This document shows positions 21,512 through 60,243 of a stretch of DNA of 64,000 bases, one piece after another. A program made the translations under genes and the position numbers. Each line of letters opens with the position of its first letter. Position 1 is the first letter of the stretch. Source of the DNA: Escherichia coli. Its GTDB lineage: Bacteria > Pseudomonadota > Gammaproteobacteria > Enterobacterales > Enterobacteriaceae. Location of the stretch: the NCBI RefSeq assembly GCF_009931435.1, contig NZ_CP043414.1; one strand, 5' to 3'. The notes beneath the pieces were generated by a model. The model was not told the DNA's origin. It searched no databases and saw only the letters and a list, made by a program, of their open reading frames with translations.

Positions 21512-21573
21512 CCTAAAGAATCAAGACGATCCGGTACGCGTGATTTTCTTTTCACATTAATCTGGTCAATAAC

Positions 21574-21602
21574 CTTGAATAATTGAGGGATGACCTCATT
21601 TA
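21574..21602 (+). promoter_or_regulatory. candidate sigma32 heat-shock promoter of clpB
   Basis: CTTGAAT ... CCTCATTTA about 40 nt before the clpB start; resembles CTTGAAA-N-CCCCATnT. Confidence 0.45.
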
Positions 21603-21640
21603 ATCTCCAGTAGCAACTTTGATCCGTTATGGGAGGAGTT

Positions 21641-24214
21641 ATGCGTCTGGATCGTCTTACTAATAAATTCCAGCTTGCTCTTGCCGATGCCCAATCACTT
21701 GCACTCGGGCACGACAACCAATTCATCGAACCTCTTCATTTAATGAGCGCCCTGCTGAATCAGGAAGGGGGTTCGGTTAGTCCTTTATTAACATCCGCCG
21801 GCATCAATGCTGGTCAGTTGCGCACAGATATCAATCAGGCATTAAATCGTTTACCGCAGGTTGAAGGCACTGGTGGCGATGTCCAGCCCTCACAGGATCT
21901 GGTGCGCGTTCTTAATCTTTGCGACAAGCTGGCGCAAAAACGTGGTGATAACTTTATCTCGTCAGAACTGTTCGTTCTGGCGGCACTTGAGTCTCGCGGC
22001 ACGCTGGCCGACATCCTGAAAGCAGCAGGGGCGACCACCGCCAACATTACTCAAGCGATTGAACAAATGCGTGGAGGTGAAAGCGTGAACGATCAAGGAG
22101 CTGAAGACCAACGTCAGGCTTTGAAAAAATACACTATCGACCTCACCGAACGAGCCGAACAAGGCAAACTCGATCCGGTGATTGGCCGTGATGAAGAAAT
22201 TCGCCGTACCATTCAGGTACTGCAACGTCGTACTAAAAATAACCCGGTGCTGATTGGTGAACCAGGTGTTGGTAAAACAGCCATCGTTGAAGGTCTGGCT
22301 CAGCGTATTATCAATGGCGAAGTACCGGAAGGGCTGAAAGGCCGCCGCGTACTGGCGCTGGATATGGGCGCGCTGGTGGCTGGGGCGAAATATCGCGGTG
22401 AGTTTGAAGAACGTTTAAAAGGCGTACTTAACGATCTTGCTAAACAGGAAGGGAACGTCATCCTGTTTATCGACGAATTACATACCATGGTCGGCGCGGG
22501 TAAAGCCGATGGCGCAATGGACGCCGGAAACATGCTGAAACCGGCGCTGGCGCGTGGTGAATTGCACTGCGTAGGTGCCACGACGCTGGACGAATATCGC
22601 CAGTACATCGAAAAAGATGCTGCGCTGGAACGTCGCTTCCAGAAAGTGTTTGTTGCCGAGCCAACCGTGGAAGACACCATTGCTATTCTGCGTGGCCTGA
22701 AAGAACGTTATGAACTGCACCACCATGTGCAAATTACTGACCCGGCAATTGTTGCAGCGGCGACGTTGTCTCATCGCTACATTGCTGACCGTCAGCTGCC
22801 GGATAAAGCCATCGACCTGATCGATGAAGCAGCATCCAGCATTCGTATGCAGATTGACTCAAAACCGGAAGAACTCGACCGACTCGATCGTCGTATCATC
22901 CAGCTCAAACTGGAACAACAGGCGTTAATGAAAGAGTCTGATGAAGCCAGTAAAAAACGCCTGGATATGCTCAACGAAGAACTGAGCGACAAAGAACGTC
23001 AGTATTCCGAGTTAGAAGAAGAGTGGAAAGCAGAGAAAGCCTCGCTCTCTGGTACGCAGACCATTAAAGCGGAACTGGAACAGGCGAAAATCGCTATTGA
23101 ACAGGCTCGCCGTGTGGGTGATCTGGCGCGGATGTCTGAACTGCAATACGGCAAAATTCCAGAACTGGAAAAGCAACTGGAAGCCGCAACGCAGCTCGAA
23201 GGCAAAACTATGCGTCTCTTGCGTAATAAAGTGACCGACGCCGAAATTGCTGAAGTGCTGGCGCGTTGGACGGGGATTCCGGTTTCTCGCATGATGGAAA
23301 GCGAGCGCGAAAAACTGCTGCGTATGGAGCAAGAGCTGCACCATCGCGTTATTGGTCAGAACGAAGCGGTTGATGCGGTATCTAACGCTATTCGTCGTAG
23401 CCGTGCGGGGCTTGCTGACCCGAATCGCCCGATTGGTTCATTCCTGTTCCTCGGCCCAACGGGTGTGGGGAAAACTGAGCTTTGTAAGGCGCTGGCGAAC
23501 TTTATGTTTGATAGCGACGAGGCGATGGTCCGTATCGATATGTCCGAGTTTATGGAGAAACACTCGGTGTCTCGTCTGGTTGGTGCGCCTCCGGGATATG
23601 TCGGTTATGAAGAAGGTGGCTACCTGACCGAAGCAGTGCGTCGTCGTCCGTATTCCGTCATCCTGCTGGATGAAGTGGAAAAAGCGCATCCGGATGTCTT
23701 CAACATTCTGTTGCAGGTACTGGATGATGGGCGTCTGACTGACGGGCAGGGGAGAACGGTCGACTTCCGTAATACGGTTGTCATTATGACCTCTAACCTC
23801 GGTTCCGATTTGATTCAGGAACGCTTCGGTGAACTGGATTATGCGCACATGAAAGAGCTGGTACTCGGTGTGGTAAGCCATAACTTCCGTCCGGAATTCA
23901 TTAACCGTATCGATGAAGTGGTGGTCTTCCATCCGCTGGGTGAACAGCACATTGCGTCGATTGCGCAGATTCAGTTGAAACGTCTGTACAAACGTCTGGA
24001 AGAACGTGGTTATGAAATCCACATTTCTGACGAGGCGCTGAAACTGCTGAGCGAGAACGGTTACGATCCGGTCTATGGTGCACGTCCTCTGAAACGTGCA
24101 ATCCAGCAGCAGATCGAAAACCCGCTGGCACAGCAAATACTGTCTGGTGAATTGGTTCCGGGTAAAGTTATTCGCCTGGAAGTTAATGAAGACAGGATTG
24201 TCGCCGTCCAGTAA
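21641..24214 (+). CDS. clpB: chaperone disaggregase ClpB
   Basis: 857 aa from [11 protein letters not shown]; two AAA+ modules ([16 protein letters not shown]); the ORF track starts 4 codons upstream. Confidence 0.95.
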
Positions 24215-24655: not shown

Positions 24656-26197
<1,542 letters not shown>

Positions 26198-26368
26198 CCT
26201 TAAAGAAGCGTACTTTGCAGTGCTCACACAGATTGTCTGATGAAAAGTGAATAGCAAGGCGTTTACGCGTTGGGAGTGAGGCTGAAGAGAATAAGGCCGT
26301 TCGCTTTCTATTAATGAAAGCTCACCCTACACGAAAATATCACGCAGCGCGTGATAAGCAATTTTCGT

Positions 26369-26444
26369 GTCCCCTTCGTCTAGAGGCCCAGGACACCGCC
26401 CTTTCACGGCGGTAACAGGGGTTCGAATCCCCTAGGGGACGCCA
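26369..26444 (+). tRNA. gltW: tRNA-Glu (UUC) in the 16S-23S spacer
   Basis: GTCCCCTTCGTCTAGAGGCCCAGGACACCGCCCTTTCACGGCGGTAACAGGGGTTCGAATCCCCTAGGGGACGCCA, 76 nt. Confidence 0.95.
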
Positions 26445-26637
26445 CTTGCTGGTTTGTGAGTGAAAGTCACCTGCCTTAATATCTCAAAACTCATCTTCGG
26501 GTGACGTTTGAGATATTTGCTCTTTAAAAATCTGGATCAAGCTGAAAATTGAAACACTGAACAACGAAAGTTGTTCGTGAGTCTCTCAAATTTTCGCAAC
26601 ACGATGATGAATCGCAAGAAACATCTTCGGGTTGTGA

Positions 26638-29541
<2,904 letters not shown>

Positions 29542-29728
29542 TACAACGCCGAAGGTGTTTTGGCGGATTGAGAGAATTTCAGCTTGGATCCAGAGTCCGA
29601 AGGATTTTGCGCTGAGACAAGGCGGCAAATGAAGCGAAGGAAGGAGCATACTGAAGTATGTGACTGATTTTCGCGAATGCAGCCAACGCAGTATCAGCAC
29701 AAAAGACACAGGACAGAGCACAGGAATT

Positions 29729-29848
29729 TGCCTGGCGGCCTTAGCGCGGTGGTCCCACCTGACCCCATGCCGAACTCAGAAGTGAAACGCCGTAGCGCCG
29801 ATGGTAGTGTGGGGTCTCCCCATGCGAGAGTAGGGAACTGCCAGGCAT
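29729..29848 (+). rRNA. rrfG: 5S ribosomal RNA
   Basis: TGCCTGGCGGCC...GGGAACTGCCAGGCAT, 120 nt. Confidence 0.97.
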
Positions 29849-41489: not shown

Positions 41490-41700
41490 AATGCCGGGCT
41501 TAAACCCGGCACCCAACTTGTCGACGAAGTGCGTTTTGTTCATGCCGGATGCGGCGTGAACGCCTTATCCGGCCTACAAGATCGTGCAAATTCAATATAT
41601 TGCATGAGCCATGTAGGCCTGATAAGCGTAGCGCATCAGGCAGTTTTGCGTTTGCCAGCACTTTTAATTCCGGGCTTAAACCCGGAATTAAGATCACTCT
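41490..41700. repeat. cluster of REP (BIME) elements
   Basis: Several copies or inversions of gccggatgcggcgtgaacgccttatccggcctac-like units between yfiE and srmB. Confidence 0.8.
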
Positions 41701-47170: not shown

Positions 47171-48126
47171 TGAAGCAACTTTGGTTTGCCATGTCATTAG
47201 TGACAGGTAGCCTGTTATTCTCTGCTAACGCCTCGGCCACTCCCGCGTCCGGGGCGTTATTACAGCAGATGAACCTGGCCAGTCAGTCACTGAATTACGA
47301 GCTGTCATTCATCAGCATCAATAAACAGGGTGTTGAGTCTCTGCGTTATCGACATGCACGCCTCGATAACCGTCCTCTTGCACAATTGTTGCAAATGGAT
47401 GGCCCGCGCCGGGAAGTGGTACAGCGCGGCAATGAAATCAGCTACTTTGAACCGGGCCTTGAACCGTTCACGCTTAATGGCGATTACATTGTTGATTCTC
47501 TGCCATCGCTCATCTATACCGATTTCAAACGCCTTTCTCCTTACTACGACTTTATCTCCGTGGGACGCACGCGTATTGCTGATCGTCTTTGCGAAGTCAT
47601 TCGCGTGGTGGCCCGTGATGGCACACGCTACAGCTACATCGTGTGGATGGACACCGAATCGAAATTACCGATGCGGGTTGATCTCCTTGATCGCGATGGT
47701 GAAACGCTGGAACAATTTCGCGTGATTGCTTTTAACGTTAATCAGGATATCAGCAGCAGTATGCAGACGCTGGCGAAAGCAAATCTGCCGCCGCTGCTTT
47801 CTGTTCCTGTAGGTGAAAAAGCTAAATTCAGCTGGACGCCAACCTGGTTGCCACAGGGGTTTAGTGAGGTTTCCAGCAGCCGACGTCCGTTACCGACGAT
47901 GGACAACATGCCTATCGAATCACGTCTCTATTCCGACGGATTATTCAGCTTCTCGGTAAACGTTAACCGCGCTACGCCATCGAGCACCGATCAGATGTTG
48001 CGTACCGGACGCAGAACCGTCAGTACAAGCGTACGTGATAACGCCGAAATCACCATTGTCGGCGAACTGCCGCCGCAAACGGCGAAACGCATTGCCGAGA
48101 ATATTAAGTTCGGGGCAGCGCAATGA
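47170..48126 (+). CDS. rseB: sigmaE regulatory protein RseB
   Basis: 318 aa with signal peptide; rpoE-rseA-rseB-rseC synteny. Confidence 0.95.
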   Translation: MKQLWFAMSLVTGSLLFSANASATPASGALLQQMNLASQSLNYELSFISINKQGVESLRYRHARLDNRPLAQLLQMDGPRREVVQRGNEISYFEPGLEPFTLNGDYIVDSLPSLIYTDFKRLSPYYDFISVGRTRIADRLCEVIRVVARDGTRYSYIVWMDTESKLPMRVDLLDRDGETLEQFRVIAFNVNQDISSSMQTLAKANLPPLLSVPVGEKAKFSWTPTWLPQGFSEVSSSRRPLPTMDNMPIESRLYSDGLFSFSVNVNRATPSSTDQMLRTGRRTVSTSVRDNAEITIVGELPPQTAKRIAENIKFGAAQ

Positions 48127-48602
48127 TCAAAGAGTGGGCTACGGTCGTCTCCTGGCAAAACGGGCAGGCGCTGGTCAGTTGTGATGTTAAAGCCTCATGC
48201 AGCAGCTGTGCTTCCCGTGTCGGTTGCGGTAGCCGCGTGCTGAATAAACTTGGCCCACAAACCACGCATACCATTGTCGTACCCTGTGATGAACCGTTAG
48301 TGCCGGGGCAAAAAGTGGAATTAGGAATCACCGAAGGCAGCCTGCTTAGCTCCGCATTACTGGTTTATATGTCGCCGTTGGTGGGATTATTCCTCATCGC
48401 TTCGTTATTTCAGCTACTCTTTGCTTCAGATCTTGCAGCATTATGCGGTGCGATTCTCGGCGGCGTTGGTGGATTCCTGATTGCACGCGGCTACTCGCGA
48501 AAGTTTGCTGCCCGGGCGGAATGGCAACCGATCATCTTAAGCGTGGCATTGCCGCCAGGCCTTGTGCGATTTGAAACATCTTCGGAAGACGCGAGCCAGT
48601 GA
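48123..48602 (+). CDS. rseC: sigmaE regulatory protein RseC
   Basis: 159 aa, Cys motif CSSCASRVGC, 2 TM segments. Confidence 0.95.
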   Translation: MIKEWATVVSWQNGQALVSCDVKASCSSCASRVGCGSRVLNKLGPQTTHTIVVPCDEPLVPGQKVELGITEGSLLSSALLVYMSPLVGLFLIASLFQLLFASDLAALCGAILGGVGGFLIARGYSRKFAARAEWQPIILSVALPPGLVRFETSSEDASQ

Positions 48603-48799
48603 TTTCACTGGCTTTGTTGCATTTTGCATAACAAATGCGAGGACGTTTCCAGATACCACAATCCATACGGTATGAACATTTCCTCGCCTCAATGTTGTAG
48701 TGTAGAATGCGGCGTTTCTATTAATACAGACGTTAAGCTCAGAACAGCGACTTCTAAAAGCCTGGTTAACCGGGCATTAAGGCACAATAATCATACTTT

Positions 48800-50599
<1,800 letters not shown>

Positions 50600-51645: not shown

Positions 51646-51831
51646 GATAAATCCCCCGTGGCTAACGACATCCCCCGTCGTTGTGTATAGAATATTCCCC
51701 CGAAGTTTAAGGTTGGCACCTCCAGGTTGCCACGGCACACGAAACAGCGTTGGTCCCCATATACCGGTAAACTGAAACTGCAGCGAAGCAGTTAGCAGAG
51801 CCATGTATATCAGGTCTGTTTCGTGTGCTGA

Positions 51832-53444
<1,613 letters not shown>

Positions 53445-53575
53445 TTAGCATACTCTATGACTTTCGAGGTGCAGGAAGGCGGCAAGACCGTGAATCCCTG
53501 GGAGCTTACTAAAGTAAGTGACCAGGGTGAACGGGTGCAGCCAAGGCACCTGCAACTTGAAAGGCGACGAGTATG

Positions 53576-54304
53576 ATGGAAGGCTGGCAGCGCGCATTCG
53601 TATTGCATAGTCGCCCGTGGAGCGAAACCAGCCTGATGCTGGACGTCTTCACGGAGGAATCGGGTCGCGTGCGTCTGGTTGCCAAAGGCGCACGCTCTAA
53701 ACGCTCTACTCTGAAAGGTGCATTACAGCCCTTCACTCCTCTCTTGCTACGTTTTGGCGGGCGTGGCGAAGTCAAAACGCTGCGCAGTGCTGAAGCTGTC
53801 TCGCTGGCGCTGCCATTAAGCGGTATCACCCTTTACAGTGGTTTGTACATTAACGAACTTCTCTCCCGCGTGCTGGAATACGAGACGCGCTTCTCTGAAC
53901 TCTTTTTCGATTACTTGCACTGCATTCAGTCTCTTGCAGGTGCCACTGGTACGCCAGAACCCGCGCTGCGCCGCTTTGAACTGGCACTGCTCGGGCATCT
54001 GGGCTATGGCGTCAATTTTACCCATTGTGCGGGTAGCGGCGAGCCGGTAGATGACACCATGACGTATCGTTATCGCGAAGAAAAAGGGTTTATCGCAAGT
54101 GTCGTTATCGATAATAAAACGTTCACCGGAAGGCAGTTAAAAGCGTTAAACGCGCGGGAATTTCCTGACGCAGACACACTGCGCGCCGCGAAACGCTTTA
54201 CCCGCATGGCGCTAAAGCCGTATCTTGGCGGTAAACCATTAAAGAGCAGGGAACTGTTCCGGCAGTTTATGCCTAAGCGAACGGTGAAAACACATTATGA
54301 ATGA
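53576..54304 (+). CDS. recO: DNA repair protein RecO
   Basis: 242 aa from [19 protein letters not shown]. Confidence 0.95.
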
Positions 54305-54315
54305 TGAGGATTGTC

Positions 54316-55047
54316 ATGGCTGAATTACTGTTAGGCGTCAACATTGACCATATTGCAACGCTGCGTAACGCACGTGGTACTGCTTACCCGGATCCGGTGC
54401 AGGCGGCGTTTATTGCTGAGCAGGCGGGGGCGGATGGCATTACCGTGCATCTACGTGAAGATCGTCGCCACATTACCGACCGCGACGTGCGCATCCTGCG
54501 TCAGACGCTGGATACCCGCATGAATCTGGAGATGGCGGTGACCGAAGAGATGCTGGCGATCGCCGTTGAAATAAAGCCGCATTTTTGCTGCCTGGTACCT
54601 GAAAAGCGCCAGGAAGTCACAACCGAAGGTGGCCTGGACGTCGCAGGGCAGCGTGACAAAATGCGCGATGCCTGTAAACGTCTGGCGGATGCCGGGATTC
54701 AGGTTTCTCTGTTTATCGACGCCGATGAAGAGCAGATCAAAGCCGCGGCAGAGGTTGGCGCACCGTTTATTGAGATCCACACCGGTTGCTATGCCGATGC
54801 CAAAACTGACGCCGAACAGGCGCAAGAGCTGGCGCGCATTACGAAAGCCGCGACCTTTGCGGCAAGCCTCGGTCTGAAAGTTAACGCCGGACACGGTCTG
54901 ACCTATCACAACGTGAAAGCCATTGCCGCCATTCCTGAGATGCACGAACTGAATATCGGTCATGCCATTATTGGTCGTGCAGTGATGACCGGACTGAAAG
55001 ATGCGGTGGCAGAAATGAAGCGTTTGATGCTGGAAGCGCGTGGCTAA
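54316..55047 (+). CDS. pdxJ: pyridoxine 5'-phosphate synthase
   Basis: 243 aa from [21 protein letters not shown]. Confidence 0.95.
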
Positions 55048-55427
55048 TGGCAATATTAGGTTTAGGCACGGATATCGTGGAGATCGCTCGCATAGAAGCG
55101 GTGATCGCCCGATCCGGTGAGCGCCTGGCACGTCGCGTATTAAGCGATAACGAATGGGAAATCTGGAAAACGCACCACCAGCCGGTGCGTTTTCTGGCGA
55201 AACGCTTTGCCGTAAAAGAAGCCGCAGCAAAAGCGTTTGGCACCGGGATCCGCAATGGTCTGGCGTTTAATCAGTTTGAAGTATTTAACGATGAGCTTGG
55301 TAAGCCACGGCTGCGACTGTGGGGCGAGGCATTAAAACTGGCGGAAAAGCTCGGCGTTGTAAATATGCATGTAACGCTGGCAGATGAGCGCCACTATGCT
55401 TGTGCCACGGTAATTATCGAAAGTTAA
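55047..55427 (+). CDS. acpS: holo-ACP synthase
   Basis: 126 aa [19 protein letters not shown]... Confidence 0.95.
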
Positions 55428-55454
55428 AATAATATCGTTCTCTTTAAAAAGTAA

Positions 55455-55492
55455 AACCCCCGAACTGGTAAGGAACGGGGGTTTTACTTTAC
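55455..55492 (+). terminator. acpS terminator
   Basis: aaaacccccg...cgggggtttt hairpin followed by a T-rich tract. Confidence 0.7.
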
Positions 55493-55846
55493 AACTTTAA
55501 TTTTGTGCAGCACACGATTCCAACAAAAATGATTATGGATCAATTTAGTTATCCTGTACAAGCAACTTGCAATCTTTAGCATAAAAACTCGAGCCTTTAC
55601 GAAGAAATCGATATTGATGAAAAGATTAACGTGACCGCTTTTTGATAAGTACATTAGAATCGGCGTCGTTATTGGATATTTTGCTGTGTTCTACGCCATG
55701 CCACTGAATTCCCCCATTGAAACGAGTGGTGTCGTCAAAGCTCTGGTGTGGAGTGCGGCACTCGATTCCAATAACTCGCACGTTCAGTTTTGGGGAGATG
55801 TAAGGGCTAATCTGAACGGCTGCATTCCTTGTTTAAGGAAAAACGA

Positions 55847-55927
55847 ATGACTGATTGCCGATACCTGATTAAACGGGTCATTAAAGTCGTCATTGCTGTT
55901 TTACAGCTGATCCTTCTGTTCTTGTAA
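55847..55927 (+). CDS. shoB: type I toxin ShoB (26-aa membrane peptide)
   Basis: ATG at 55847; MTDCRYLIKRVIKVVIAVLQLILLFL then TAA; matches K-12 ShoB as recalled (II versus VV); lies between acpS and yfhL as in K-12. Confidence 0.7.
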   Translation: MTDCRYLIKRVIKVVIAVLQLILLFL

Positions 55928-56120
55928 CACCAGGAAACGTACTTAAGGCGCGTCAGGTTAACCAGCCAGGCGCGCCTTTAATAATTAGACGTAAGTGTCG
56001 GCGTATATATTATCGGAATTCATTTAATGAATATATTCATTAATGACATCATGGAAATGAATATGTAACTTTCGCTTTTATACGAGCAAATAAGCAATAT
56101 CCTGCTCATAGAGCAAAATA

Positions 56121-56417
<297 letters not shown>

Positions 56418-56436
56418 TTATACGCGCATTCTTTAC

Positions 56437-57285
56437 TCAAACCAGTTTTTTCACCAGCGCTTCACTATGACGAATACGTTCTGGTGCCAGTTCCAGATCC
56501 TGCTGAATCAGCGCAATGAACAGTAAATCCGTTAACATTCCCTGAGCGTGACAAGCAGAGATTGCAGCACTGTTTGTCGCTTGTTCTTCGGCAATGGTAT
56601 ACAGGCAGTGAGAAGCGCGTTGTTGCAGGGCATTGGGAGTAAAGCCGGTAATTGCCATCACTTTTCCGCCCACTCGCAGCATCTCATCTGCCGCCAGGTT
56701 TAACTCGCGTCGTACACCAGTGTAGGAAATGGCTAATAACAGATCGTCAGGGGACGACGCCTGGACTGTGGCGAGTAGCGCATGCATATCGCGCACTGCG
56801 GCGGCATTGAAGCCAATCTTCATCAGCTTCCAGGCAAAGTTTTGCGCCACCAGACCCGAAGCGCCAATACCGGTCAGAATTATCCGCCGCGCAGAGCGCA
56901 ACATTGCCACGCCTTCATGCAGTTTCTCTTCACTATTAACGTTTAGCGTTGCGTACATGGCGGCAGTATTTTCTTTAATCAGTTTTTCGCCGACCAGCCG
57001 TAACGGATCATCACCACGGATTTGGTTATGAATGGGCACAGAAGGGGATTCCGGCTGGCTTGCCAGCGCTTCACTCAACGCCAACTTCAATGCCGGAAAA
57101 CCTTTATAGCCGAGTTTTTGCGCGAACTTCACGACGCTGGACTGACTGACTCCGGCTTCGTTGGCCAGTTGCTGAGAGCTTAAATGGCGCGCCGTATCAG
57201 GTTGTAGTAGCAAATAGTCCGCCAGTTTTTTATCACTCTGGGCAAGCCCCTGGTAACGCTGACGGATACGAAGTAAGCCGTTCAT
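56437..57285 (-). CDS. yfhH: RpiR/MurR-family transcriptional regulator YfhH
   Basis: 282 aa from MNGLLRIRQRYQGLAQSDKKLADYLL; HTH plus SIS domain. Confidence 0.85.
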   Translation of the reverse strand: MNGLLRIRQRYQGLAQSDKKLADYLLLQPDTARHLSSQQLANEAGVSQSSVVKFAQKLGYKGFPALKLALSEALASQPESPSVPIHNQIRGDDPLRLVGEKLIKENTAAMYATLNVNSEEKLHEGVAMLRSARRIILTGIGASGLVAQNFAWKLMKIGFNAAAVRDMHALLATVQASSPDDLLLAISYTGVRRELNLAADEMLRVGGKVMAITGFTPNALQQRASHCLYTIAEEQATNSAAISACHAQGMLTDLLFIALIQQDLELAPERIRHSEALVKKLV

Positions 57286-57493
57286 ATCTTTCCTCGCGAT
57301 GAAATTATGGCGACAACAGGCAATATGAAACACACGCGAGTGAATTTTATATTCCATTGCTGCTAATTGCCATGAATTAAAAATTCCAGATAGCCATGAT
57401 GCAGTCGATTGTTGCCGGAAAAGTGATGATCTATCTGTTAGGCTATGTAGTAGCGAAGATTAATCAGGATGTTTCAGTCCAGAGGAGTATGGT

Positions 57494-58129
57494 TTGGCAA
57501 CTCACGAGCGTCGTGTGGTGTTTTTTGACTTAGATGGAACATTGCATCAGCAGGATATGTTCGGCAGTTTTATGCGTTATTTACTGCGTCGCCAACCGCT
57601 GAATGCATTACTTGTCCTGCCGTTGTTGCCGGTCATTGCCATCGCGTTATTGATAAAAGGTCGTGCAGCACGCTGGCCGATGAGTCTGCTTCTTTGGGGA
57701 TGCACTTTTGGTCACAGTGAAGCGCGTTTACAGGCGTTGCAGGCCGATTTTGTGCACTGGTTTCGCGACAATGTTACAGCTTTTCCGCTTGTCCAGGAGC
57801 GTTTGACTACCTACCTGTTAAGTTCCGATGCGGATATTTGGTTGATCACAGGCTCTCCGCAGCCGCTGGTTGAAGCGGTTTATTATGATACGCCCTGGTT
57901 GCCGCGGGTTAATCTTATTGCCAGTAAGATCCAGCGGGGTTATGGCGGTTGGATATTGACGATGCGTTGTCTGGGACATGAAAAGGTCGCACAACTGGAG
58001 CGCAAAATTGGCACGCCGCTGCGGCTGTACAGTGGCTATAGCGACAGTAATCAGGACAACCCGCTGCTTTATTTCTGCCAGCATCGCTGGCGGGTAACCC
58101 CGCGTGGTGAACTCCAGCAACTGGAATAG
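57494..58129 (+). CDS. pgpC: phosphatidylglycerophosphatase C (HAD family, YfhB)
   Basis: 211 aa, HAD motif FFDLDGTL. Confidence 0.9.
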   Translation: MATHERRVVFFDLDGTLHQQDMFGSFMRYLLRRQPLNALLVLPLLPVIAIALLIKGRAARWPMSLLLWGCTFGHSEARLQALQADFVHWFRDNVTAFPLVQERLTTYLLSSDADIWLITGSPQPLVEAVYYDTPWLPRVNLIASKIQRGYGGWILTMRCLGHEKVAQLERKIGTPLRLYSGYSDSNQDNPLLYFCQHRWRVTPRGELQQLE

Positions 58130-58141
58130 AGTAAAGCATAG

Positions 58142-60243
<2,102 letters not shown>

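What the first reader, a model, noticed from the sequence alone, without database searches (positions are those of the whole stretch)
55700..55930. shoB type I toxin (and expected antisense ohsC region) present with two conservative substitutions
The 26-aa peptide differs from K-12 ShoB as I recall it only at KIII versus KVVI. The locus between acpS and yfhL is otherwise conserved, so the antisense sRNA ohsC should be encoded on the opposite strand just upstream. It is absent from the ORF track because it is shorter than 60 aa.
Basis: established knowledge. Interest (0 to 1): 0.2.

Follow-up and report, generated by a model that had tools for sequence, protein, structure and literature searches.

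The report
Known shoB/ohsC toxin-antitoxin locus, rare allele
This is the well-known E. coli shoB toxin gene with its OhsC antitoxin RNA, intact and ordinary. It carries a rare allele in which the short stretch where the two RNAs pair differs from K-12 on both partners in a matching way.

Summary
Window 55847-55927 (+) encodes MTDCRYLIKRVIKVVIAVLQLILLFL, which is K-12 ShoB with I14V and I15V. There is no frameshift, the SD is intact, and both promoters are recognisable.

ohsC is present (Rfam RF02495, 101.7 bits against a cut-off of 50). It is transcribed divergently and does not overlap shoB.

"Otherwise conserved" is too generous. The intergenic DNA is 87.7% identical to K-12, against about 95-97% for the flanking genes.

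The 20-nt OhsC/shoB pairing site belongs to a different class from K-12. Seven positions differ, and they changed on both partners. Five pairs are compensated and one U·U mismatch remains.

Among 5,426 complete E. coli genomes this "A" class holds about 31% and the K-12 "B" class about 68%, with the two sides almost perfectly linked. Both classes also occur in E. albertii.

The window's ohsC-to-5'UTR segment is 98-100% identical to an E. albertii allele, while the flanks are 88-93% identical. That suggests exchange between the species.

The VV peptide occurs in 18 of 5,426 genomes and is already named ShoB in RefSeq. This is a known system and of low interest. The compensated dimorphism is a modest extra.

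The parts
55448..55524 (-). ohsC, the 77-nt antitoxin sRNA. The 5' 20 nt (55505-55524) form the pairing segment GUUGGAAUCGUGUGCUGCAC. The 3' part is a 15-bp G+C-rich terminator hairpin followed by a U tract. The hairpin is palindromic, so it probably also terminates acpS.
   Evidence: Rfam RF02495: 101.7 bits (gathering 50), E = 7.4e-17, model positions 1-77 of 77. Fold. A sub-threshold + strand hit (36.9 bits) comes from the palindromic terminator, the same effect noted in PMC11264685.
55532..55561 (-). ohsC promoter: -35 TTGTAC (55561-55556) and -10 CATAAT (55537-55532). The predicted start at 55524 is 7 nt after the -10.
   Evidence: Consensus scan. The hexamers match those tabulated for E. 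coli in PMC11264685: -10 CATAAT in 100% of genomes, -35 TTGTAC in 33.1% and TTGTAA in 66.8%.
55631..55660 (+). shoB promoter: -35 GTGACC (55631-55636), 18-nt spacer, -10 TAGAAT (55655-55660; K-12 has TAAAAT).
   Evidence: Scan, alignment, hexamers as in PMC11264685. Among the loci sampled, TAGAAT occurs only in the window, three E. coli genomes and four E. albertii genomes.
55667..55846 (+). shoB 5' UTR, about 180 nt. The start is inferred from the -10 (+/- 2 nt) and has not been mapped for this allele.
   Evidence: Inference from the promoter position. A long structured 5' UTR is reported for K-12 shoB (PMC5066626, PMC7708055).
55668..55698 (+). Predicted 5' arm. It base-pairs with 55744-55775 and so buries most of the OhsC target in the full-length mRNA. 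The +40/+41 processing reported for K-12 would remove it.
   Evidence: MFE fold (z = -4.27) and the RNAalifold consensus of 15 haplotypes give the same helices. All 4 window-specific substitutions inside them keep a pair (U25·G, C27-G, G31·U, U21·G93). This is a prediction only.
55753..55772 (+). OhsC target in the shoB 5' UTR, GUGCGGCACUCGAUUCCAAU. The class-defining variable patch is 55761-55768. It falls mostly in the predicted internal loop, except its last base (55768), which pairs in the flanking helix.
   Evidence: Duplex with the OhsC 5' end: 17 Watson-Crick pairs, 2 G·U and 1 U·U over 20 positions, -33.5 kcal/mol. Pair counts on 7 haplotypes: 98.6% paired, 5 pairs changed on both sides.
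55825..55840 (+). Shine-Dalgarno hairpin: anti-SD UUCCUU (55825-55830) paired with SD AAGGAA (55835-55840).
   Evidence: Predicted. The SD AAGGAA is unchanged in all 15 haplotypes, and the hairpin pairs vary in only one of them (E. albertii, one anti-SD base). RBS AAGGAA is 100% conserved in PMC11264685.
55847..55927 (+). shoB ORF, 26 aa plus stop: MTDCRYLIKRVIKVVIAVLQLILLFL (I14V and I15V relative to K-12).
55945..55978 (+). Probable shoB terminator hairpin (AAGGCGCG...CGCGCCUU followed by UAAUAAUU).
   Evidence: Hairpin in the fold. Relative to K-12, one stem pair changed on both sides (U-A to C-G) (read by eye). The consensus terminator scan did not call it, because the U tract is weak.

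Best explanation
This is an intact chromosomal shoB-ohsC type I toxin-antitoxin locus of Escherichia coli. shoB (55847-55927) encodes a 26-aa hydrophobic membrane toxin, here the V14/V15 variant. It is transcribed from a sigma-70 promoter (-10 at 55655-55660) with a ~180-nt 5' UTR. OhsC (55448-55524, minus strand) is transcribed divergently. Its single-stranded 5' end pairs with 55753-55772 of the shoB leader, about 75-95 nt upstream of the start codon. From K-12 work and the analogy with tisB/istR-1, zorO/orzO and dinQ/agrB, the likely mechanism runs as follows. The full-length mRNA is translationally inert, because its 5' ~35 nt pair with the target region and the SD is closed in a hairpin. 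Removal of about 40 nt from the 5' end activates it. OhsC binding to the exposed upstream site blocks standby or structure-dependent ribosome loading and creates an RNase III substrate. Shown here: both genes, the promoters, the SD, the terminators and the complementarity are all present. Inferred: expression, processing, repression and toxicity of this allele. The window carries the 'A' pairing class (also in O157:H7; about 31% of E. coli), not the K-12 'B' class. It is a rare sub-allele whose ohsC-to-5'UTR segment is nearly identical to an E. albertii allele.
For: ORF and peptide. The exact peptide is named ShoB in RefSeq/UniRef. ohsC has a full-length Rfam hit at 101.7 bits. Synteny is acpS-ohsC-shoB-yfhL. 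Promoter hexamers and the RBS match those catalogued in more than 2,000 E. coli (PMC11264685). The cognate duplex is -33.5 kcal/mol against -21.5 to -23 for cross-class pairs. On 7 haplotypes, 98.6% of duplex cells are paired and 5 pairs are compensated, against 23-53% paired when the partner is slid. Census: shoB-side A 1689 and ohsC-side A 1692 genomes; shoB-side B 3694 and ohsC-side B 3078+506. E. albertii carries both classes, each matched. Literature: 19-nt pairing through the 5' end of OhsC (PMC3919570); an RNase III cut in the shoB/OhsC duplex (PMC6212723); an inactive full-length mRNA and an active +40/+41 mRNA, with pairing far upstream of the RBS (PMC7708055, PMC5066626). The predicted long-range helix and SD hairpin recur in the MFE and in the 15-haplotype consensus.
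Against: Nothing here shows transcription, processing or toxicity of this allele. The class-A duplex has a central U·U mismatch, and in the window an extra G·U. It is about 7-8 kcal/mol weaker than the K-12 duplex. The -10 hexamer differs from the 99.6% consensus. The 5' UTR structure rests on predictions with almost no double-sided covariation. The truncated-leader fold is no more stable than shuffles (z = -1.03). The transcription start is inferred, not mapped. No Pfam or NCBIfam model exists for ShoB, so protein membership rests on identity.
Confidence: 0.9

Rival explanations
1. The locus is present, but this allele is regulated differently or is leaky. The U·U mismatch plus the extra G·U weaken OhsC pairing, and the TAGAAT -10 changes shoB transcription. 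The toxin/antitoxin balance would then differ from K-12.
For: The cognate duplex is -33.5 kcal/mol against -41.4 for K-12. The mismatch is fixed in all class-A loci. TAGAAT is rare.
Against: Class A with the same U·U mismatch is carried by about 31% of E. coli, including O157:H7, so it is evidently tolerated. The G·U change also keeps the intramolecular pair U21·G93. Two uninterrupted runs of 9 and 10 pairs (Watson-Crick or G·U) remain, and 18 nt was sufficient in the related zorO/OrzO system (PMC3919570). Position 3 of the -10 hexamer is the least constrained (established knowledge of sigma-70 promoters).
Confidence: 0.1
2. The matched differences in ohsC and the shoB leader do not reflect selection for pairing. 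They are one linked block, or one gene-conversion event between two direct repeats 248 bp apart, that hitch-hiked as a haplotype. On this view the 'covariation' is a single event and says little about function.
For: Only two major classes exist, so the five compensated pairs may trace to one event; the tool counts cells, not events. The two sites are about 20-bp direct repeats on the same DNA strand, which is a possible substrate for template switching. They sit within about 250 bp, so linkage is expected.
Against: Recombination breakpoints do occur inside the locus. The VV ORF is found with both class A and class B leaders, and spacer types reshuffle. Even so, the two patches matched in every one of the 33 loci where both could be read, and the genome counts differ by only 3 of about 1,690. 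Independent stepwise changes at OhsC nt 12 (A-U, G·U, G-C) also keep the pair in E. coli B1, B2 and E. albertii. Variation is concentrated in the patch while its flanks are invariant.
Confidence: 0.25
3. The 26-codon ORF is a decaying remnant or a chance ORF that is no longer functional in this lineage.
For: The ORF is very short. ORFs of 20 aa or more are common: 21 overlap this 1.1-kb stretch.
Against: It has 24/26 identity to ShoB with only conservative I>V changes, and 2 of the 4 nucleotide differences are synonymous. The SD, promoter, terminator and partner sRNA are all intact. The same VV peptide is kept in E. whittamii and another Escherichia lineage, and VI in E. albertii.
Confidence: 0.03

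Closest known systems
E. coli K-12 shoB-ohsC (ShoB, UniProt SHOB_ECOLI; OhsC, Rfam RF02495; formerly ryfB/ryfC)
   Same: Same position between acpS and yfhL. Same divergent arrangement, 26-aa peptide (24/26 identical), -35 GTGACC, SD AAGGAA and ohsC -10 CATAAT. The OhsC terminator is identical. The 5' end of OhsC pairs with the shoB leader about 80-95 nt upstream of the ATG.
   Different: I14V and I15V in the peptide. shoB -10 is TAGAAT rather than TAAAAT, and ohsC -35 is TTGTAC rather than TTGTAA. The pairing patch differs at 7 of 20 positions on both partners (class A against class B) and leaves one U·U mismatch. The intergenic DNA is only 87.7% identical.
E. coli O157:H7-type and other class-A shoB-ohsC alleles (e.g. 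strains 2014C-3075, MA11)
   Same: Same class-A OhsC 5' end (GUUGGAAUCGUGUGCUGCAC), same class-A target and same U·U mismatch. The ohsC -35 is TTGTAC.
   Different: Those alleles have the K-12 peptide (KIII), the TAAAAT -10 and an A instead of G at 55757. They are 93-95% identical to the window over ohsC-shoB.
E. albertii shoB-ohsC allele (e.g. CP117606.1, locus L024)
   Same: ohsC is 98.1% identical, the promoter block 134/134 and the 5' UTR 98.3%. All the window-specific features are shared: TAGAAT, G at 55757 and the 5'-arm substitutions.
   Different: The peptide is KVII rather than KVVI. The flanking genes are only 88-93% identical, which is the species-level distance. The downstream spacer also differs.
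tisB/istR-1, zorO/orzO and dinQ/agrB (divergent type I toxin-antitoxin loci of E. coli)
   Same: They work alike: a divergent sRNA with 18-21 nt of 5'-end complementarity to a long toxin 5' UTR far upstream of a sequestered RBS, an inactive primary transcript activated by 5' trimming, and RNase III cleavage of the duplex.
   Different: There is no sequence homology to them. For shoB, the standby or structure-switch mechanism is a proposal in the literature, not a demonstrated result.

Membership tests
ShoB type I toxin | A 26-aa peptide with a charged N-terminus (MTDCRYLIKR) and a hydrophobic C-terminal helix, closely similar to SHOB_ECOLI | tested here: met
   24/26 identical, with only I14V and I15V. 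The exact sequence is named ShoB in RefSeq/UniRef.
ShoB type I toxin | Chromosomal position between acpS and yfhL | tested here: met
   acpS 55047-55427 (+) and yfhL 56121-56381 (-). The gene order is the same in annotated genomes.
ShoB type I toxin | Own promoter (-35 GTGACC, -10 TAAAAT) and RBS AAGGAA | tested here: met
   GTGACC and AAGGAA are identical. The -10 is TAGAAT, one change at hexamer position 3.
ShoB type I toxin | Match to a curated protein-family model | tested here: inconclusive
   Neither K-12 ShoB nor the window peptide hits any NCBIfam model, and the window peptide, the only one scanned against Pfam, hits no Pfam model for ShoB. No such model exists, so the test is uninformative.
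ShoB type I toxin | Toxic and membrane-depolarising when overproduced | not testable with these tools
   This needs an expression experiment with the VV variant.
OhsC sRNA (Rfam RF02495) | Covariance-model score at or above the gathering threshold over the full length | tested here: met
   101.7 bits against 50, model positions 1-77 of 77, E = 7.4e-17.
OhsC sRNA (Rfam RF02495) | Divergent from shoB, with its own promoter and an intrinsic terminator | tested here: met
   Minus strand. -35 TTGTAC and -10 CATAAT lie 7 nt before position 55524. A 15-bp hairpin plus U tract is present.
OhsC sRNA (Rfam RF02495) | About 19 nt of complementarity between the 5' end of OhsC and the shoB 5' UTR | tested here: met
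   20 positions: 17 Watson-Crick, 2 G·U and 1 U·U, at -33.5 kcal/mol. K-12 has 19 perfect pairs plus 1 G·U.
OhsC sRNA (Rfam RF02495) | Represses ShoB synthesis in vivo | not testable with these tools
   This needs a rescue or reporter assay.
5'-processing / standby-controlled type I toxin mRNAs (tisB, zorO, dinQ type) | The 5' end of the primary transcript sequesters the sRNA target or standby region, and the SD is closed in a hairpin | tested here: inconclusive
   Both features are predicted consistently by the MFE and by the 15-haplotype consensus. Support comes only from invariant or one-sided changes; no pair changed on both sides by the tool's count.
5'-processing / standby-controlled type I toxin mRNAs (tisB, zorO, dinQ type) | A 5'-truncated (+40/+41) mRNA is the translatable form | not testable with these tools
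   Reported for K-12. It cannot be tested for this allele here.

The most novel reading that the evidence does not exclude
The OhsC/shoB interaction site exists as two mutually mismatched 'specificity' classes. Class A is GGAAUCGUG pairing with CUCGAUUCC. Class B is GAGGGUGCA pairing with UGCACCCUC. They are kept at about 31% and 68% in E. coli, and both are also present in E. albertii. The variable patch sits in the exposed loop of the leader. Recombination shuffles the rest of the locus but essentially never separates the two patches. This would be a selection-maintained, trans-species (or repeatedly exchanged) polymorphism of antitoxin specificity, with discordant recombinants removed because the toxin is de-repressed. 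The window's allele would be an E. albertii-type segment introgressed into E. coli. The 2024 population survey noted the variability but stated that pairing potential had not been validated (PMC11264685).
Probability: 0.3. Interest if true: 0.4.

Novelty: already known. Interest (0 to 1): 0.2.

Why it matters
For annotation, this adds a short toxin gene and its sRNA, which ORF tracks with a 60-aa floor miss. It also places ohsC correctly. Biologically the locus is textbook. The one point of wider use is natural covariation evidence, drawn from about 5,400 genomes and a second species, that the predicted 20-nt OhsC-shoB duplex is under constraint. A recent survey listed that question as unresolved. 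The two pairing classes also provide a ready-made orthogonal pair for testing how OhsC represses shoB.

Tried and rejected
Fozo et al. 2008, the primary shoB/ohsC paper (PMC2597788), is not held. The mapped 5' ends were therefore taken second-hand from PMC5066626 and PMC7708055.

NCBIfam and Pfam scans of the peptide found no ShoB model. The only hit was a meaningless 9-bit match to Tmemb_cc2.

I looked for the E. albertii B-like target (CACGCAUCCUC) in E. coli genomes and found none.

The genome-contig loci for E. albertii and E. whittamii were cut before ohsC. I got round this for E. albertii by an exact-protein look-up of its YfhL. The same trick with the E. whittamii YfhL returned ordinary E. 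coli genomes, because that protein is shared, so the E. whittamii ohsC was not seen.

Folding the leader truncated at about +41 gave a structure no better than shuffled sequence (z = -1.03). I do not claim a specific active conformation or pseudoknot.

The CpxR boxes CB1 and CB2 could not be placed, because neither paper gives their sequences in the text.

Small upstream ORFs inside the leader (for example 55686-55850 and 55717-55803) were considered as leader peptides. I did not pursue them, because nothing supports them.

I considered whether the window comes from a cryptic Escherichia clade. It does not: the flanks are 95-97% identical to K-12 and the best matches are E. coli genomes.

Full report
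**1. What is in the sequence**

Window 55847-55927 (+) is an ATG ORF of 26 codons plus a stop. It encodes MTDCRYLIKRVIKVVIAVLQLILLFL. The syntenic ORF of K-12 strain C600 encodes MTDCRYLIKRVIKIIIAVLQLILLFL.

Four of the 81 bases differ from K-12, and two of those changes are synonymous. The ORF lies between acpS (55047-55427, +) and yfhL (56121-56381, -), as in K-12.

The exact peptide is already in public databases as [quoted passage not shown] and as UniRef A0A0L7ANW0. PGAP annotates it as shoB (WP_000128779.1) in E. coli 2020CK-00188, whose intergenic region is 100% identical to the window.

**2. ohsC**

A full-length match to Rfam RF02495 (ohsC_RNA) lies at 55448-55524 on the minus strand. 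It scores 101.7 bits against a gathering score of 50, with E = 7e-17.

- It lies outside the stated 55700-55930. Its 5' end is 323 nt from the shoB ATG.
- It does not overlap shoB. It is a divergently transcribed sRNA with limited complementarity, as the literature describes.
- Its promoter is recognisable: -35 TTGTAC and -10 CATAAT, ending 7 nt before 55524.
- Its terminator is a 15-bp G+C-rich palindromic hairpin. The palindrome produces a sub-threshold hit on the + strand, the same artefact noted in PMC11264685.

**3. shoB expression signals**

- The -35 GTGACC (55631-55636) and SD AAGGAA (55835-55840) are identical to K-12.
- The -10 is TAGAAT (55655-55660) instead of TAAAAT, which a survey of more than 2,000 E. 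coli found in 99.6% of loci. The change is at the third hexamer position. By established knowledge of sigma-70 promoters this is not a promoter loss.
- A hairpin at 55945-55978 probably terminates the transcript, which would then be about 310 nt long.

**4. "Otherwise conserved" is only partly true**

| Region | Identity to K-12 |
|---|---|
| Whole intergenic region | 87.7% |
| ohsC through shoB | 90.6% |
| shoB-yfhL spacer | 75.5% |
| Flanking genes | 93.9-96.8% |

Only 2 of 5,425 E. coli genomes are at least 99% identical to the window across this region, and only 14 are at least 95% identical.

**5. The pairing site has changed on both partners**

In K-12 the OhsC 5' end is GUUGAGGGUGCAUGCUGCAC and the leader target is GUGCAGCAUGCACCCUCAAU. 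They give 19 perfect pairs plus one G·U. This matches the 19 nt quoted in PMC3919570.

In the window OhsC begins GUUGGAAUCGUGUGCUGCAC (55524-55505, -) and the target is GUGCGGCACUCGAUUCCAAU (55753-55772, +). Seven positions of the target patch (55761-55768) differ from K-12, and the ohsC side carries the matching changes.

- The cognate window duplex has 17 Watson-Crick pairs, 2 G·U and 1 U·U, at -33.5 kcal/mol.
- The K-12 cognate duplex is -41.4 kcal/mol. Cross-class combinations are -21.5 to -23 kcal/mol.
- On seven distinct haplotypes, 98.6% of duplex cells are paired and five adjacent pairs changed on both sides. When the partner is slid by 1-3 columns, only 23-53% of cells pair.

**6. Population picture**

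Class-specific queries can hit only if the patch itself matches. They gave these counts among 5,426 complete E. coli genomes:

| Class | shoB-side target | ohsC side |
|---|---|---|
| A | 1,689 | 1,692 |
| B | 3,694 | 3,078 (A at OhsC nt 12) + 506 (G at nt 12, giving G·U) |

Class A, which includes O157:H7, is thus a major allele at about 31%, and the two sides are almost perfectly linked. In all 33 loci where I could read both sides, the classes matched.

Recombination does occur inside the locus:

- The VV ORF is found behind a class-A leader in Z0117EC0005, which is identical to the window over 55428-55987.
- It is also found behind class-B leaders in 2013C-4282 and MFDS1022581.
- Spacer types reshuffle as well.

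[quoted passage not shown] The counts above address that point.

One caveat applies. With two main classes, the five compensated pairs may descend from one event. The two sites are direct repeats 248 bp apart, so gene conversion is a possible route.

**7. Other species**

A degenerate ShoB pattern found the locus only in Escherichia: E. coli lineages, E. albertii, E. whittamii and two unnamed species. This agrees with the narrow distribution reported in PMC2887945.

- ShoB is KVVI in E. whittamii and in the 'E69' lineage.
- In E. albertii it is KVII in six of the seven genomes read; one, L025, has KIII.
- V at these positions may therefore be ancestral.

Six complete or draft E. albertii genomes were fetched through their exact YfhL protein. 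Their flanks are 99.2-99.5% identical to the E. albertii type strain and about 89.5% identical to the window. They carry both classes:

- Four have class A with exactly the window's private features (TAGAAT, G at 55757 and the 5'-arm substitutions).
- Two have a B-like pair (OhsC GUUGAGGGUGCGUGCUGCAC with target GUGCAGCACGCAUCCUCAAU) that is fully paired at -40.2 kcal/mol.

At OhsC nt 12 the series A-U (K-12), G·U (E. coli B2) and G-C (E. albertii) is a stepwise compensatory path.

Against E. albertii L024, the window's ohsC is 98.1% identical, the promoter block 134/134 and the 5' UTR 98.3%. The flanking genes are 88-93% identical. This points to inter-species exchange of about 420 bp, or to an old shared allele. 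The direction is unknown.

**8. Mechanism (inferred)**

The literature reports the following for K-12:

- Full-length shoB mRNA is translationally inactive, and a form shortened by about 40-41 nt is active.
- OhsC pairs far upstream of the RBS, so a standby-type or dinQ-type structural switch has been proposed (PMC7708055, PMC5066626).
- RNase III cuts in the duplex region (PMC6212723).

The window's leader folds consistently with this.

- In the MFE (z = -4.27) and in the RNAalifold consensus of 15 haplotypes, 55668-55675 and 55682-55698 pair with 55744-55760 and 55768-55775. The MFE adds one further pair, 55676 with 55767.
- That pairing buries both ends of the OhsC target. The variable patch is left, apart from its last base (55768), in an internal loop.
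- The SD is closed by UUCCUU (55825-55830).
- All four window-specific substitutions inside these helices keep a pair. Because they are transitions, this is weak evidence.
- Pair 11/104 occurs as G-C, A-U and G·U.
- In a leader truncated at about +41, the stretch UCGAUUCCAAU is predicted to be single-stranded. That fold is not better than shuffled sequence.

I therefore regard the architecture as conserved and the detailed switch as unproven.

**9. Verdict**

This is a real, intact and already-named locus. The VV peptide is rare in E. coli (18 of 5,426 genomes) but is catalogued.

Interest is low. The compensated two-class pairing site shared with E. albertii is a modest addition that the tools could document but not explain.

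Noticed in passing
window 56382-56436 (yfhL-yfhH junction); L022 2600-15150: E. coli 2020CK-00188 has the only intergenic region 100% identical to the window. It carries a ~12.5-kb island between yfhL and yfhH. The island holds a tyrosine integrase, DEAD/DEAH helicase, VRR-NUC, DNA polymerase, DUF2815/DUF2800, tail-fibre assembly and serine acetyltransferase genes. The window lacks it, and yfhH follows yfhL directly. The two BLAST pieces overlap by about 38 bp, which may be the attachment-site repeat.
   Followed up: partly
L021 (E. coli EC96) 1501-2500: In this genome an IS1 element sits between ohsC and yfhL, and shoB is gone. It is an 'antitoxin-only' locus of the kind reported as rare in PMC11264685.
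   Followed up: no
L009 (E. coli R32_14_1F) 818-898: This is the second-closest allele (99.4%). Its ShoB has an extra L7Q change (MTDCRYQIKR...), and PGAP calls it 'hypothetical protein' although the gene name is shoB. A polar residue in a conserved N-terminal position might impair the toxin.
   Followed up: no
window 55928-56120: The shoB-yfhL spacer is by far the most variable part of the region: 75.5% identical to K-12, with at least three unrelated-looking versions among E. coli. It is AT-rich, with repeated ATGAAT/ATTCAT motifs. Its function is unknown. It may hold the yfhL terminator (a terminator-like hairpin at 56095-56123, minus strand).
   Followed up: no
window 55945-55978: The probable shoB terminator hairpin differs from K-12 at several stem positions. 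One is a clean compensatory U-A to C-G exchange and one position became an A/A mismatch.
   Followed up: partly
window 21522-21660, 24656-29846, 41578-41620, 48087-48918, 51702-51916: Other Rfam matches above gathering score in the window are RyfD, a complete rRNA operon (16S, a tRNA, 23S, 5S) with StyR-44, ES036, AsrC (antisense to rseC) and the rncO leader. This is consistent with the rrnG-rseABC-lepA-rnc-era-recO-pdxJ-acpS region of E. coli.
   Followed up: no
window 52430-59000: Core genes flanking the locus are only about 94-97% identical to K-12 at DNA level. The window therefore comes from an E. coli lineage fairly distant from K-12. The phylogroup was not determined.
   Followed up: no
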